DNA of 64,000 nt from Escherichia coli (GCF_003018255.1 NZ_CP027440.1), one strand, 5' to 3'. Counted from the stretch's first letter, positions 47,444-54,203 are shown. The notes: generated from the letters alone by a model not told the origin. Made by a program: numbers and translations.

Positions 47444-48034
47444 ATGCCTGAAAAACGAAAGCATCTCACTCGTCATGAAGTGGGACAGATATTGCTTGCA
47501 GCAGACAGAGGGATCCATTTTGAGCGCGATTATTGCCTCATTCAGATGTGTTTTTTACACGGCCTGCGGGTCAGTGAACTGTGCGGGATGCGCCTGTCTG
47601 ATATCGATCTGATCGGGCGCTCGGTGTATGTCCGGCGGTTGAAAAACAGTCTCTCCACGCAGCATCCGCTGTTTGATAATGAACTGCCTGCGCTGATGCG
47701 CTGGCTGGCGGTACGCAACCGCTGGCGGGATGCGGATTCAGACTGGTTGTTCCTGTCGCAGAAGGGTGGTGCGCTGTCGCGCCATCAGGTTAGATTGTTA
47801 CTCAAACGTTACGGAGAACTGGCAGGTGTCAGCATTTCCGCTTATCCGCATATGCTGAGACACGGTTGCGGTTACGCGCTGGCAGATCTGGGGCGCGACA
47901 CCCGTCTGATACAGGATTATCTGGGGCACCGGAACATCCGGCATACGGTGATTTATACGGCGACAAATACGCAGAGGTTTATGAATGTCTGGGGAAACGT
48001 GAGAGAAAACCACACAATTAGTGCCAGAATGTAA
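47444..48034 (+). CDS. FimB/FimE-family tyrosine recombinase (fimbrial switch-type)
   Basis: 196 aa; strong resemblance to FimE (RLIQDYLGHRNIRHTVIYTA, HMLRHGCGYALA). Confidence 0.85.
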   Translation: MPEKRKHLTRHEVGQILLAADRGIHFERDYCLIQMCFLHGLRVSELCGMRLSDIDLIGRSVYVRRLKNSLSTQHPLFDNELPALMRWLAVRNRWRDADSDWLFLSQKGGALSRHQVRLLLKRYGELAGVSISAYPHMLRHGCGYALADLGRDTRLIQDYLGHRNIRHTVIYTATNTQRFMNVWGNVRENHTISARM

Positions 48035-48159
48035 AGTAGTATCAGAAAAATTTAGCAAACTGTCAAAATTTTTCTGAGACCCCTTTTGGTAACGGACTAT
48101 CTTGTTGTTTTTAAAATAATATTTAATGTAACAAATATGTAGTCTCTCTCTGGTCCTGG

Positions 48160-48198
48160 CTGGCAACGTGCTTAAGTGGTTCACGTTGCCAGTTTTTA
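48160..48198 (+). terminator. Rho-independent terminator between recombinase and fimbrial operon
   Basis: 11-bp perfect stem ctggcaacgtg/cacgttgccag, 11-nt loop, followed by ttttt. Confidence 0.6.
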
Positions 48199-48401
48199 CT
48201 CACTCACCGCATTACGGTTTTATGCCATTTTGAAAGCCATACTTCACTTCCACTGACATTTTATTTTTCACCCCCTTCGTCCACCACATTTTCTCCTGAA
48301 CTCACCACTCTGGCACTAACGGGAAAGTCTTACGCGGGTTTTCTCGTCACCAGAGTGAATCAGGGTTGAGCCCTGAGTGATCTTTCATCAAGGAGAAACG
48401 T

Positions 48402-52236: not shown

Positions 52237-53237
52237 GAGTATGGCGCGGGATGATTCTGCTGGCGGGGATCCTGTTCTGCCAGGCGTCGTGGGCGTTTTG
52301 CACGTCTTCGGTGAGTTTCTCCATCAGCCCCGGTACGGTGGTGGTCCAGCGGGATGCTGTGGTGGGGGAACCCATTAGCGACTGGCTGGTGTCGAACCAG
52401 GGGATGGCCTATCAGGACTGCAATTATGATGCAACGCCACAATACGTCATCAATGCAGGCATCAAAAACACGGGCTCCCGCGCCAGCGTCACCTGGAATG
52501 GTGAGGCGGTGTTTAACAGTAATGTCGCAGGTGTGGGATTTGTGTTTGAAGGCCGCTCCTCGGTCGACAGCAATCCGTTACCGGAAAACTGGATCGGTAT
52601 CGCCAGCGGGCAGTCGCAGGTATTCACGCTCCAGATAAGCCACAGCGTTGGCTACCATCCCTCCATTAACGATCAGGCGCGGATCCGGCTGATAAAAACC
52701 GGCGACATTACGCCCGGTACGCTGAGCGGCAACCTGGGGCGTTTTATCGCGGGGACAAGGGAGAACGGGCAGTGGTCGACTGAAATTCCCATTACATTTT
52801 CCGGTGGGCAAATCACCACCATCGCCTGCTCAGTGACCACGCCTGATGTCAATGTGCCGCTGGGGCAGCATCAAAAAGCGGAGTTCTCCGGGCCGGGAAC
52901 GGGAACCGGCTGGCAGGCGTTTAACATCGGGCTGGACTGCGATAAAAGTGCCCGTATCAACGTTCAGATAGATGCCGTACAGGATCCGTCCAACGTGGCT
53001 GGCGTGATGAAGCTGGACAGCGCGCCCGGAGACATGGCGGCTACGGGCATCGGTGTCCAGTTGTTCTTTGCACCGGATAACAGCGCCGTACAGTTTGGTC
53101 AGTCACGCTATTACTATACCTCTCCCAATGGCGGTACTGAGACAGTGCAGCTTAAGGCGCGGTATTACCAGACCGCAGCCACGATTACTGCAGGTGTTGC
53201 CAATGCCACGGCGACCTTCACGCTGACCTATAAATGA
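52233..53237 (+). CDS. Fimbrial adhesin-like two-domain subunit (paralogue 1)
   Basis: Start MRVWRGMILLAGILFC overlaps usher stop (ATGA); C-terminal pilin domain ends TATFTLTYK. Confidence 0.7.
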   Translation: MRVWRGMILLAGILFCQASWAFCTSSVSFSISPGTVVVQRDAVVGEPISDWLVSNQGMAYQDCNYDATPQYVINAGIKNTGSRASVTWNGEAVFNSNVAGVGFVFEGRSSVDSNPLPENWIGIASGQSQVFTLQISHSVGYHPSINDQARIRLIKTGDITPGTLSGNLGRFIAGTRENGQWSTEIPITFSGGQITTIACSVTTPDVNVPLGQHQKAEFSGPGTGTGWQAFNIGLDCDKSARINVQIDAVQDPSNVAGVMKLDSAPGDMAATGIGVQLFFAPDNSAVQFGQSRYYYTSPNGGTETVQLKARYYQTAATITAGVANATATFTLTYK

Positions 53238-53255
53238 CGTCGCCGGAGTGTTGAG

Positions 53256-54203
53256 ATGAGAAAAATTCTTTTCTTCCTGCTGTTGATGATAGCCGTCCTG
53301 CCGGAGGTTCAGGCCACCTGTTCGTTCTACGGTGGTGTGACATCAGAAGTATCGGGTTACCTGAATTTCGGCAACGTGGTTATCCAGCGGGATGCACAGG
53401 TCGGCAGCACGATTGCCACTGCCATTACAGGGGCATACAACAATGGCGACGGCATTGCCGGGTGTAAGCGGGAGGCCTGGACCGCCCGCTGGGAACTGAC
53501 GCAATGGGGGACGCTGAGTGGCTATGGGAATGGTGTCTACAACACCAACCTGCCAGGGGTAGGATTACGTCTGAGTGCGGCCTCGACAGGTAAAACATTG
53601 CCCTATGAAACCAGCTACGCCTACAACGCTGGCGGCACCTGGGTATCCATTCCCGGTGATGGCATCAAGGGCGAGCTTATCAAAACCGGGGATATCACCA
53701 GCGGTACATTAACGGACGGTGTGCTGGCGCGCGCTTCGGTAGTGAATCAGTTTTATTTTGCCAACGTCACGTTGAACGGGATGAACACAGTGAAATCAGA
53801 AGCTTGTACTGTGACCACGCCCTCTGTTGATGTCCCGATGGGGGATCACGATAAAAGCGAATTCAGTGGTGCGGGATCTTCAACCGACTGGGTGAGCTTT
53901 GATATTGGTTTGAGCTGCGATGTCGGGGCGAGAATAAACGTACGTATCGATGCCACTGCGGATGCTTCCGCCGGTTCGCAAGGCGTCATGCTGATTGATA
54001 GCGGCGGGGCGTCTGGCGTGGGGATACAACTTCATTACCGCCCGGATGATGCCGCTGTCCAGTACGGTCAGGAACGGTTTTACTGGCAGTCGGTATATGG
54101 TGACGAGATCGTGCAGCTTAAGGCGCGATATTACCAGACTGCAGGCTCGATCACGCCAGGTGCGGCAAACGGTACGGCGACGTTTACGATGAGTTATAAA
54201 TAG
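53256..54203 (+). CDS. Fimbrial adhesin-like two-domain subunit (paralogue 2)
   Basis: 315 aa; C-terminal half aligns with paralogue 1 (…QLKARYYQTA…ATFT.SYK), N-terminal half diverged. Confidence 0.7.
   Translation: MRKILFFLLLMIAVLPEVQATCSFYGGVTSEVSGYLNFGNVVIQRDAQVGSTIATAITGAYNNGDGIAGCKREAWTARWELTQWGTLSGYGNGVYNTNLPGVGLRLSAASTGKTLPYETSYAYNAGGTWVSIPGDGIKGELIKTGDITSGTLTDGVLARASVVNQFYFANVTLNGMNTVKSEACTVTTPSVDVPMGDHDKSEFSGAGSSTDWVSFDIGLSCDVGARINVRIDATADASAGSQGVMLIDSGGASGVGIQLHYRPDDAAVQYGQERFYWQSVYGDEIVQLKARYYQTAGSITPGAANGTATFTMSYK

What the first reader, a model, noticed from the sequence alone, without database searches (positions are those of the whole stretch)
47444..54203. FimB/FimE-like recombinase upstream of a non-fim chaperone-usher operon with two tandem adhesin paralogues; possible invertible promoter
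The recombinase is clearly FimE-like and is followed by a 367-bp intergenic region and then a fimbrial operon (major subunit, chaperone, usher, two two-domain adhesin-like subunits). This arrangement parallels fimE-fimS-fimA, so the intergenic region may hold an invertible promoter switch. I could not identify an unambiguous flanking 9-bp inverted-repeat pair: candidates are CTCTGGT at 48148 versus ACCAGAG at 48349, and CACTCTGG at 48306 versus CCAGAGTG at 48350. A strong terminator hairpin (48160-48198) and a 12-bp IR (48042-48077) are also present. The two adhesin paralogues share a pilin domain but have divergent N-terminal halves, suggesting distinct receptor specificities.
Basis: partly seen in the sequence, partly recalled or inferred. 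Interest (0 to 1): 0.5.

Follow-up and report, generated by a model that had tools for sequence, protein, structure and literature searches.

The report
ICE-borne fimS-like fimbrial phase switch
A mobile element in this E. coli carries a self-contained adhesive-fimbria operon whose promoter appears to sit on a 302-bp flip-switch, parked OFF, next to its own recombinase: a new example of a well-known kind of on/off switch, though flipping itself has not been seen.

Summary
The gene content is as described: a 196-aa FimB/FimE-family invertase (47444-48034), a 367-bp spacer, then major subunit, chaperone, usher and two two-domain adhesins. The likely switch is 48018-48319 (302 bp). It is bounded by TTAGTGCCAGA(A/G)TG, and the left arm lies inside the last codons of the recombinase gene. 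Evidence is comparative. In eight or more diverged relatives the 9-bp core (TTNGNNCCA, cf. fimS TTGGGGCCA) changes at three positions, always in both arms, at constant spacing. A sigma-70-like promoter sits exactly 20 nt inside the left arm pointing away from the operon, matching the fimA promoter in OFF-state fimS (19 nt). A one-directional terminator is also conserved. The window is therefore OFF. No inverted copy was found: 42/42 E. coli genomes, 12/12 metagenome contigs and 14 predicted ON-form proteins all negative, against about 1,700 OFF contigs. fimS is assembled ON in 5.3% of genomes. The locus is cargo of a leuX integrative conjugative element. It is probably the E. coli counterpart of Klebsiella KpcI/kpcS/kpcABCD, which I could not verify by sequence. 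Verdict: new member of a known kind, moderate interest.

The parts
47444..48034 (+). Tyrosine DNA invertase (196 aa), FimB/FimE/MrpI family. It is the only such recombinase at the locus.
   Evidence: ORF. NF007370 250.5 bits against a 221-bit cutoff; 50% identical to FimB, 47% to FimE, 60-63% to MrfI/Morganella homologues, catalytic residues invariant. RefSeq WP_001561273.1 is annotated 'tyrosine-type DNA invertase'.
48018..48319 (.). Proposed invertible element (302 bp including the repeats), here in the OFF orientation.
   Evidence: I2; span 301-305 in orthologues.
48018..48031 (+). Left inverted repeat TTAGTGCCAGAATG (9-bp core TTAGTGCCA at 48018-48026). It lies inside the last five codons of the recombinase gene; the stop codon is at 48032-48034.
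48306..48319 (+). Right inverted repeat CACTCTGGCACTAA (core TGGCACTAA at 48311-48319).
48038..48066 (-). Sigma-70-like promoter TTGACA-17-GATACT. It points towards the recombinase gene in this orientation. After inversion it would lie at about 48271-48299 (+) and start transcription about 95 nt upstream of the major-subunit ATG.
   Evidence: 10/12 match; the only good promoter in 47200-48600; the -10 ends exactly 20 nt from the IRL outer end in all 9 relatives, against 19 nt for the known fimA promoter in K-12 fimS. Conserved in alignment A1.
48042..48077 (.). 12-bp perfect palindrome TCAGAAAAATTT / AAATTTTTCTGA (21 nt at 86% if extended) spanning the promoter's -10 to -35 interval. It may be an operator or simply a by-product of promoter conservation.
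   Evidence: I1. (-15.7 kcal/mol, z -3.5 as RNA). Conserved in A1. Function not established.
48160..48198 (+). Intrinsic terminator inside the element (11-bp GC-rich stem plus T-run). It is functional only for rightward transcription in the present orientation, so it blocks recombinase read-through into the operon.
   Evidence: -21.8 kcal/mol, z -4.3, with a U-run on + only; the reverse strand has the hairpin but no U-run. The stem is conserved with compensatory changes in L008 and L010.
48306..48376 (+). Predicted 5'-UTR structure of the ON-state mRNA: stem CACUCUGG (48306) / CCAGAGUG (48350) enclosing a second hairpin, then hairpin 48360-48376.
   Evidence: 48300-48401: -36 kcal/mol, z -2.8. 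CCAGA at 48350-48354 is invariant in A1. The role is inferred.
48402..48914 (+). Major fimbrial subunit (170 aa); AAGGAG ribosome-binding site at 48390-48395.
   Evidence: (fimbrial subunit families, none above the equivalog cutoff).
49028..49708 (+). Periplasmic PapD-like chaperone (226 aa by the RefSeq start).
   Evidence: best LpfB 223 bits and FimC 217 bits, both below cutoff. (PapD_N/PapD_C in orthologues).
49720..52236 (+). Outer-membrane usher (838 aa).
   Evidence: best LpfC 976 bits (cutoff 1271) and FimD 780 bits (cutoff 975), so it is neither Lpf nor Fim..
52233..53237 (+). Adhesin paralogue D1 (334 aa): divergent N-terminal receptor-binding-type domain plus C-terminal pilin domain.
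   Evidence: Fimbrial 1.1e-16, MrkDrd only 0.0021. AF2 model pLDDT 76.6, with full-length best fold matches to the tip adhesins CupB6, FimH, PapG and FocH. Nearest homologue is the L010 adhesin at 52%.
53256..54203 (+). Adhesin paralogue D2 (315 aa): MrkD/Abp2D-like receptor-binding domain plus pilin domain.
   Evidence: MrkDrd 2.4e-14, Fimbrial 8.7e-17. Abp2D RBD 3e-9, MrkD 3u4k 7e-7. It is 62-66% identical to the adhesins of the Klebsiella modules.

Best explanation
The locus is a self-contained, phase-variable fimbrial module of the fimS type, carried as cargo on a leuX-integrated conjugative element. A single FimB/MrpI-like tyrosine invertase (47444-48034) is proposed to invert the 302-bp segment 48018-48319 by recombination between two 9-bp cores (TTAGTGCCA / TGGCACTAA). 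In the orientation present in the window (OFF), the element's only good sigma-70 promoter fires leftwards into the 3' end of the recombinase gene. An intrinsic terminator inside the element stops rightward read-through, and no promoter lies between the right repeat and the major-subunit ATG, so the operon is silent. Inversion would place the promoter about 100 nt upstream of the major subunit gene and disable the terminator for rightward transcription. That would switch on major subunit, chaperone, usher and two alternative two-domain tip adhesins. Inversion would also replace the recombinase's last residue with a 15-residue tail (196 to 210 aa). What is shown: the gene identities; the repeats; their covariation and constant spacing across relatives; the conserved position of the promoter and terminator; and the uniform OFF orientation. 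What is inferred: that inversion occurs, that this recombinase catalyses it, promoter activity and the transcription start, and that each pilus carries either D1 or D2 at its tip. The last point follows from established chaperone-usher biology, in which two-domain adhesins lack an N-terminal extension and can only initiate a pilus.
For: (1) The recombinase passes the curated invertase model and keeps all catalytic residues. (2) An IR of 11 nt perfect, 14 nt with one mismatch, lies immediately next to the recombinase; this occurs in 3.5% of shuffles. (3) The same IR pair is found at the same place in E. coli, K. pneumoniae, K. quasipneumoniae, Kosakonia, Entomohabitans, Leminorella, Trabulsiella and an unnamed species. 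The CCA-to-TGG distance is 289-292 bp. (4) The core sequence differs between lineages (TTAGTGCCA, TTCGTACCA, TTTGTGCCA, TTCATACCA, A/TTAGGACCA, TTTGGACCA; fimS TTGGGGCCA) but is the same in both arms every time. In the pair count, 80 of 81 core cells are complementary, the 3 variable positions carry 10 double-sided changes and no broken pairs, the flanks are at background, and slid controls pair at 26-37% against 72.5%. Tyrosine recombinases need identical crossover regions in the two partner sites (established knowledge), which is exactly what this pattern preserves. (5) In all nine relatives a leftward sigma-70-like promoter has its -10 ending exactly 20 nt from the outer end of the left repeat. 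The experimentally known fimA promoter in OFF-state K-12 fimS sits at 19 nt. (6) The terminator hairpin is conserved with compensatory stem changes and has a T-run on one strand only. (7) No + strand promoter is predicted anywhere between 47200 and 48600. (8) There is precedent for an IR inside the recombinase ORF with C-terminal recoding: ipuS/IpuA in UPEC (PMC6083910).
Against: No copy in the inverted orientation was found anywhere. All 42 complete E. coli genomes that hold the whole spacer are collinear with the window. The ON-junction pattern found nothing in metagenome contigs, and all 12 contigs with the left junction are OFF. Every fetched relative is OFF. None of 14 exact predicted ON-form recombinase proteins exists in a 15-billion-protein collection, whereas the matching OFF forms occur on roughly 1,700 or more contigs. 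For comparison, the proven fimS switch is assembled ON in 248 of 4,719 E. coli genomes, or 5.3%. No IHF consensus site was found in or beside the element. Promoter and terminator are consensus predictions only. In 36 of 43 E. coli carriers the usher is cut by IS150 and the adhesin genes are missing, so in most E. coli hosts the module is decaying.
Confidence: 0.75

Rival explanations
1. The element is a fossil or permanently locked switch. The repeats and promoter are inherited from a fimS-like ancestor, but inversion no longer happens in present-day hosts and the operon is effectively silent or expressed by some other route.
For: Zero inverted copies among 42 genomes, 12 metagenome contigs, all fetched relatives and roughly 1,700 or more contigs judged by protein form, against 5.3% ON for fimS. 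The operon is decaying through IS150 in most E. coli carriers.
Against: A dead switch should accumulate independent mutations in its two arms. Instead at least six different core variants are each perfectly matched between arms across lineages whose spacers have otherwise diverged to about 50-60%. The promoter position and terminator are also held constant. Consensus assemblies cannot see minority orientations. Cryptic, culture-silent fimbrial operons are common in Enterobacteriaceae (general knowledge).
Confidence: 0.12
2. The element inverts, but control is exerted mainly by the orientation-dependent terminator, which gates read-through from the recombinase promoter, rather than by an internal promoter.
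For: The strong, conserved, one-directional terminator lies inside the element. The recombinase and operon are co-oriented. The internal promoter is only a consensus match with a -10 of 4/6.
Against: The -35 TTGACA and the exact 20-nt placement relative to the repeat are conserved in all relatives and are homologous in position to the proven fimA promoter. No convincing promoter was predicted upstream of the recombinase gene. The two mechanisms are not exclusive.
Confidence: 0.08
3. The switch boundaries are the first reader's pairs (48148/48349 or 48306/48350), giving an element of about 210 bp or about 50 bp confined to the intergenic region.
For: Both pairs exist in the sequence (I13 and I16).
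Against: Repeats of 7-8 nt are expected by chance, at about 6 and 1.6 per shuffle. The 48148 arm lies in a non-conserved stretch of alignment A1. Neither pair encloses the promoter in a way that would redirect it. The 48306/48350 pair is better explained as an RNA stem in the 5' UTR.
Confidence: 0.02

Closest known systems
E. coli type 1 fimbrial switch fimS with FimB/FimE
   Same: Small tyrosine invertase immediately upstream and co-oriented with the fimbrial operon. An element of about 300 bp bounded by 9-bp cores of the same pattern (TTAGTGCCA against TTGGGGCCA, with CAATT preceding both). An outward-facing sigma-70 promoter whose -10 lies 19-20 nt from the repeat end and points at the recombinase gene in the OFF state.
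   Different: One recombinase instead of two. 302 bp rather than 314 bp. The left repeat is inside the recombinase ORF rather than 49 bp downstream of it. There is an intrinsic terminator inside the element and no IHF consensus. The recombinase is only 47-50% identical. The operon lacks FimF/FimG-type adaptors and has two adhesin genes. It is never seen ON in assemblies, whereas fimS is ON in 5.3%.
   Same: Gene order is recombinase, switch, major subunit, chaperone, usher, adhesin. As I recall the paper, kpcS is 302 bp with 11-bp inverted repeats, which matches the 302-bp span and the 11-nt perfect repeat found here and in the K. pneumoniae ICE copy. The K. pneumoniae ICE copy (L005) has exactly I+ABCD and a recombinase 95% identical to the window's. 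The NTUH-K2044 genome is reported to hold an ICE region about 90% identical to this ICE subgroup (PMC4042001). Kpc is accessory and strain-associated.
   Different: The host is E. coli. There are two adhesin genes instead of one, and D1 is only 45% identical to the K. pneumoniae ICE adhesin. Orthology to the NTUH-K2044 sequences themselves could not be checked with the available tools.
ipuS / IpuA-IpuB switch of uropathogenic E. coli CFT073 (PMC6083910)
   Same: One repeat lies inside the recombinase coding sequence, so inversion changes the recombinase C-terminus. The promoter is inside the element. The half-sites resemble fimS.
   Different: ipuS is 260 bp with 7-bp repeats and controls a LuxR-type regulator and an autotransporter, not a chaperone-usher operon. 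Its recombinase is divergent from its target genes. Inversion was shown experimentally.
MrpI / MR-P fimbrial switch of Proteus mirabilis and MrfI of Xenorhabdus (recalled from the literature)
   Same: A single invertase serves a fimbrial promoter switch. These are the nearest named sequence relatives outside the orthologue group, at 60-63% identity.
   Different: As I recall, mrpI is transcribed divergently from mrpA and the element is about 250 bp with 21-bp repeats. The operons are different.

Membership tests
FimB/FimE-family tyrosine DNA invertases | Scores above the curated cutoff of the NCBIfam invertase subfamily model | tested here: met
   NF007370 scores 250.5 bits against a 221-bit cutoff. 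The FimE-type model NF007371 scores 200.9 against 222, so that one is not passed.
FimB/FimE-family tyrosine DNA invertases | Catalytic R-K-H-R-H-Y set present; small (~200 aa) protein without an arm-binding N-terminal domain | tested here: met
   R42, K67, H136, R139, H162 and Y171 are invariant in the alignment with FimB and FimE. The protein is 196 aa.
FimB/FimE-family tyrosine DNA invertases | Catalyses inversion of a linked DNA segment | not testable with these tools
   Needs an in vivo or in vitro inversion assay.
fimS-type invertible promoter elements | Pair of inverted repeats about 250-320 bp apart, adjacent to the recombinase gene | tested here: met
   48018-48031 / 48306-48319, span 302 bp. 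The position and spacing are the same in 8 or more relatives.
fimS-type invertible promoter elements | The two crossover cores are identical and are kept identical as they evolve | tested here: met
   80/81 core cells are complementary, with 10 double-sided changes at 3 positions and none broken. Slid controls pair at 26-37%. A further core type occurs in the tandem K. pneumoniae module.
fimS-type invertible promoter elements | Promoter inside the element, reading outwards across one repeat | tested here: met
   Consensus prediction TTGACA-17-GATACT, conserved and positioned as the fimA promoter is in fimS. The transcription start has not been mapped.
fimS-type invertible promoter elements | Both orientations occur in nature or within a population | tested here: inconclusive
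   0 ON among 42 genomes, 12 metagenome contigs, all fetched relatives and 14 predicted ON-form proteins. However, only consensus assemblies could be examined, and these hide minority orientations. fimS itself is ON in only 5.3% of assemblies.
fimS itself (type 1 fimbrial switch) | 9-bp repeats TTGGGGCCA, 314 bp, served by FimB plus FimE, IHF sites | tested here: not met
   The core is TTAGTGCCA, the element is 302 bp, there is one recombinase, and there is no IHF consensus. It is a paralogous switch, not fimS.
Klebsiella Kpc system (KpcI/kpcS/kpcABCD) | Sequence orthology to NTUH-K2044 kpcI, kpcS and kpcABCD | not testable with these tools
There is only indirect support.
Klebsiella Kpc system (KpcI/kpcS/kpcABCD) | Architecture of recombinase, ~302-bp switch with 11-bp repeats, then A-B-C-D | tested here: met
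   Span 302 bp with an 11-nt perfect repeat and matching gene order. The reference values are recalled from memory, and this locus has an extra adhesin gene.
Lpf or type 1 (Fim) fimbriae | Usher, chaperone and subunits reach the equivalog cutoffs | tested here: not met
   LpfC 976 against 1271; FimD 780 against 975; LpfB 223 against 360; FimC 217 against 327; FimA 88 against 140. It is a related chaperone-usher operon but neither Lpf nor Fim.
Two-domain chaperone-usher tip adhesins | N-terminal receptor-binding domain plus C-terminal pilin domain | tested here: met
   D2: MrkDrd 2.4e-14 plus Fimbrial 8.7e-17, and Abp2D/MrkD RBD hits. D1: Fimbrial 1.1e-16 with weak MrkDrd, and the full-length fold matches CupB6, FimH and PapG (model pLDDT 76.6, with the N-domain less confident).

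The most novel reading that the evidence does not exclude
The recombinase, switch and operon unit is a portable, self-addressed cassette family. Its crossover cores have diversified into at least six variants so that co-resident copies are insulated from each other and from the host's fimS. An example is the two tandem modules in K. pneumoniae with cores TTTGTGCCA and TTCATACCA, each beside its own recombinase. Conjugative elements would then deliver ready-made, tightly OFF-locked, independently switchable adhesins with interchangeable tip-adhesin genes into new Enterobacteriaceae.
Probability: 0.3. Interest if true: 0.55.

Novelty: new member of a known kind. Interest (0 to 1): 0.35.

Why it matters
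If the switch works, a conjugative element found in E. coli, Klebsiella, Salmonella, Citrobacter and Enterobacter carries its own phase-variable adhesin. A recipient would acquire a new attachment organelle and the bet-hedging circuit that controls it in one transfer. The organelle has one or two exchangeable receptor-binding tips. The natural series of matched repeat-core variants also gives a set of candidate orthogonal recombinase/site pairs for studying how FimB-family enzymes choose their sites. Practically, it gives exact boundaries and junction sequences for read-level inversion screens, which an annotation of 'tyrosine-type DNA invertase' alone does not.

Tried and rejected
(1) 210-aa recombinase homologues in K. 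michiganensis looked like the predicted 210-aa ON form. Their tails turned out to be a frameshifted read-through of the OFF orientation, so the length match is a coincidence.

(2) Exact look-ups of 14 predicted ON-form proteins found none.

(3) A search with the ON-form C-terminal 49 residues returned only 3 candidates, all covering the shared part. It is uninformative because only cluster representatives are indexed.

(4) The ON-junction DNA pattern in metagenome contigs gave 0 hits. The neutral left-junction pattern gave 12 contigs, all OFF.

(5) The plasmid collection has no match to the locus.

(6) E. coli IH5, the only genome with a partial spacer match, is a scrambled or mosaic region, not an inversion.

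(7) The Wu et al. 2010 KpcI paper is not held. Nine reviews and papers citing it give no kpcS sequence.

(8) Scans for the IHF and Lrp consensus in the switch found nothing.

(9) An Rfam scan of 47200-48600 found nothing meaningful.

(10) The predicted ON-form C-terminal tails of different lineages have similar length (206-211 aa total) but no sequence conservation, so there is no sign that the tail is under selection.

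Full report
WHAT IS THERE. The window is E. coli and is 100% identical over the locus to strain JNE23-011.
- a 196-aa recombinase at 47444-48034;
- a 367-bp spacer;
- a 170-aa fimbrial major subunit at 48402-48914;
- a PapD-like chaperone ending at 49708;
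- an usher ending at 52236;
- two adhesin-like genes at 52233-53237 (D1) and 53256-54203 (D2).

The recombinase passes NCBI's curated 'tyrosine-type DNA invertase' model, with 250.5 bits against a 221-bit cutoff. It is 50% identical to FimB and 47% to FimE, and the catalytic R, K, H, R, H and Y residues are all conserved. RefSeq already annotates it as an invertase. The chaperone and usher are closest to Lpf and Fim but fall below every equivalog cutoff, so the operon is a related but distinct chaperone-usher system.

CONTEXT. The locus is cargo of an integrative conjugative element inserted at tRNA-Leu(CAA) (32590-32674). The element carries a MobH relaxase, TraG/TraD and the TIGR037xx ICE genes on both sides of the locus. 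The locus occurs in 43 of 5,426 complete E. coli genomes and in no plasmid. Only 7 genomes have the whole operon. In the others the match ends at query position 4658 inside the usher, and where I looked (Ec-U9-1) IS150 sits at that point and the adhesin genes are absent. The operon is 55-60% G+C, the spacer 41%, and the serine-recombinase/ParB block just downstream 35-48%.

THE REPEATS. However, perfect inverted repeats of 7 and 8 nt are expected about 6 and 1.6 times in shuffles of this 600-bp region. The best repeat was missed because its left arm lies inside the recombinase ORF. It is TTAGTGCCAGAATG at 48018-48031 and CACTCTGGCACTAA at 48306-48319, which is 11 nt perfect and 14 nt with one mismatch, with an outer span of 302 bp. 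A perfect 11-nt repeat arises in 3.5% of shuffles. That is suggestive on its own but not decisive.

COMPARATIVE EVIDENCE. This is the decisive part. I collected orthologous modules from several sources:
- other E. coli;
- a K. pneumoniae ICE (L005);
- a small integrase island in K. quasipneumoniae (L008);
- an unnamed species (L010);
- Kosakonia, Entomohabitans, Leminorella and Trabulsiella.

Their recombinases are 65-95% identical to the window's. Their spacers are otherwise poorly conserved. Four features stand out.

(a) The repeat pair is always present at the same place. The left arm sits over the end of the recombinase gene, and the CCA-to-TGG distance is 289-292 bp, compared with 302 bp in fimS.

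(b) The 9-bp core follows TTNGNNCCA and differs between lineages. The variants are TTAGTGCCA, TTCGTACCA, TTTGTGCCA, A/TTAGGACCA and TTTGGACCA, with fimS at TTGGGGCCA. In every lineage both arms carry the same variant. In a formal pair count, 80 of 81 core cells are complementary. The three variable positions carry 10 double-sided changes and no broken pair. Pairing falls to background outside the core, and slid controls give 26-37% against 72.5%. Because tyrosine recombinases require identical crossover sequences in the two partner sites (established knowledge), this is the pattern expected of a working recombination pair. It is not expected of two unrelated sequences.

(c) In all nine loci a sigma-70-like promoter lies on the minus strand with its -10 ending exactly 20 nt from the outer end of the left repeat. 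In the window it is TTGACA-17-GATACT at 48066..48038. By the same measure the experimentally known fimA promoter (TTGAGA-18-TATGAT) in K-12 fimS, which is in the OFF orientation in the reference genome, sits at 19 nt.

(d) The hairpin at 48160-48198 is conserved with compensatory stem changes. It has its U-run on the + strand only (-21.8 kcal/mol, z -4.3). No + strand promoter is predicted anywhere in 47200-48600.

MECHANISM. As it stands, the element is OFF. Its promoter fires into the 3' end of the recombinase gene, and the internal terminator stops read-through towards the operon. Inversion of 48018-48319 would put the promoter at about 48271-48299 on the + strand, roughly 100 nt upstream of the ATG at 48402. 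It would also turn the terminator so that it no longer blocks rightward transcription. The predicted 5' UTR folds into a stable structure (-36 kcal/mol, z -2.8).

Because the left core is inside the ORF, inversion would change the recombinase end from ...ISARM* (196 aa) to ...ISARVVSSGENVVDEGGEK* (210 aa). The tails predicted for other lineages are similar in length but not in sequence, so I attach no function to the tail. A repeat inside the recombinase gene with C-terminal recoding has a direct experimental precedent in ipuS/IpuA of E. coli CFT073, where both protein forms are active (PMC6083910).

HAS INVERSION BEEN SEEN? No.
- All 42 complete E. coli genomes holding the whole spacer are collinear with the window.
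- The ON-junction pattern found nothing in metagenome contigs, and all 12 contigs with the left junction are OFF.
- Every fetched relative is OFF.
- Fourteen exact predicted ON-form recombinase proteins, covering three E. coli variants and seven other modules, are absent from a 15-billion-protein collection. The corresponding OFF forms are on at least 1,000, 610, 65, 25, 23 and 10 contigs, among others.

As a calibration, a synthetic ON version of K-12 fimS matches 248 of 4,719 E. coli genomes end to end, which is 5.3%. So 0 of 42 alone is unremarkable (P about 0.1). The protein-form counts, however, show that this switch is far more firmly OFF in sequenced cultures than fimS. Consensus assemblies cannot exclude minority inversion, so I regard the 'both orientations' criterion as inconclusive, not failed.

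RELATION TO KNOWN SYSTEMS. The architecture is that of fimS, but it is not fimS. The core differs, the element is 302 bp rather than 314 bp, there is a single recombinase, and no IHF consensus is present.

The nearest published system is probably Kpc of K. pneumoniae NTUH-K2044 (KpcI, kpcS, kpcABCD; Wu et al. 2010). I could not obtain that paper. From memory it reports a 302-bp kpcS flanked by 11-bp inverted repeats, the same numbers as here. Three further points support a link. The K. pneumoniae ICE copy has exactly the I+ABCD layout, with a recombinase 95% identical to the window's. NTUH-K2044 is reported to contain an ICE region about 90% identical to this leuX ICE subgroup (PMC4042001). 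Kpc is an accessory, strain-associated locus. Orthology to the NTUH-K2044 sequence itself remains untested.

THE ADHESINS. D1 and D2 are 38% identical by BLASTP local alignment. A domain-by-domain global alignment gives 60.6% in the pilin domain and 32% in the N-terminal half. D2 has a clear MrkD-like receptor-binding domain (Pfam 2.4e-14) and sequence matches to the Abp2D and MrkD binding domains. D1's N-terminal half is barely detectable by sequence (MrkDrd 0.0021). An AlphaFold model built on 13 family adhesins (pLDDT 76.6) matches the two-domain tip adhesins CupB6, FimH, PapG and FocH over its full length.

Across the family the backbone genes are 73-91% identical. The adhesins vary in number (one or two) and are only 38-66% identical. 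The tip is therefore the fast-evolving, exchangeable part. That the two adhesins give alternative pilus tips is an inference from chaperone-usher biology, not a result.

VERDICT. The locus is best read as an OFF-state, fimS-type invertible promoter module on a conjugative element. It is a new member of a known kind and probably the E. coli counterpart of Kpc. Confidence that the element is a genuine, selectively maintained inversion switch with these boundaries is about 0.75. The missing piece is any direct sighting of the other orientation.

Noticed in passing
L051-L055 (K. pneumoniae), locus coordinates 3012-8774 and 9001-15493: Two complete recombinase, switch and chaperone-usher modules sit in tandem. 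Their recombinases are 90% identical to each other, but the repeat cores differ (TTTGTGCCA and TTCATACCA) and so do the operons. The second operon has a 182-aa subunit, a 235-aa chaperone, an 857-aa usher, and 343-aa and 168-aa subunits. Both switches are OFF.
   Followed up: partly
window 52236 region; L003 10683-12052: In Ec-U9-1 an IS150 insertion truncates the usher, and everything from the adhesin genes to the creatininase gene is missing, while the recombinase, switch, major subunit and chaperone remain. The 36 of 43 E. coli carriers that match only to query position 4658 probably share this.
   Followed up: partly
window 54215-57541: Directly after the second adhesin gene lie a 515-aa large serine recombinase and two ParB/RepB-like genes. 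They are much more AT-rich (35-48% G+C) than the fimbrial operon (55-60%). This block is present in E. coli C11 but not in the K. pneumoniae ICE copy, and it looks like a separately acquired insertion.
   Followed up: no
window 32590-34145: tRNA-Leu(CAA) marks the ICE boundary. In the identical RefSeq genome the adjacent integrase is annotated as a partial pseudogene, so this ICE copy may no longer excise.
   Followed up: no
window 43091-43291: The ICE carries its own copy of glgS ('cell surface composition regulator GlgS') about 4 kb upstream of the fimbrial module. The same gene is at the same place in the K. pneumoniae ICE (L005 3776-3976).
   Followed up: no
window 34773-36534: An AbiEi/AbiEii type IV toxin-antitoxin (abortive-infection) pair lies just inside the ICE next to the integrase.
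   Followed up: no
window 48042-48077: A perfect 12-bp palindrome, TCAGAAAAATTT/AAATTTTTCTGA, brackets the switch promoter's spacer and is conserved in relatives. It could be an operator for an unknown regulator. Nothing in the data identifies a binding protein.
   Followed up: partly
L032, L034-L037 (Klebsiella spallanzanii, K. grimontii, K. oxytoca, K. michiganensis, Phytobacter): More distant invertase homologues (54% identity) are followed 12 bp after the aligned recombinase region ends by a different, perfect 15-bp inverted repeat, GTCATTTTGTATCAA, spanning 286-287 bp. This is probably another family of the same kind of switch.
   Followed up: no
L026 (JAEWTL010000073.1): A contig labelled 'MAG: Bacillota bacterium' encodes a recombinase 100% identical to the E. 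coli one. This is almost certainly a mis-binned Enterobacteriaceae contig.
   Followed up: no
L004 (E. coli IH5, NZ_CP168949.1 5025867-5036111): The region around the partial spacer match is a patchwork of truncated, unrelated pseudogenes (pdu, gad, usher, tra, fliD, fcl fragments). This suggests an assembly artefact or extreme mosaicism.
   Followed up: no
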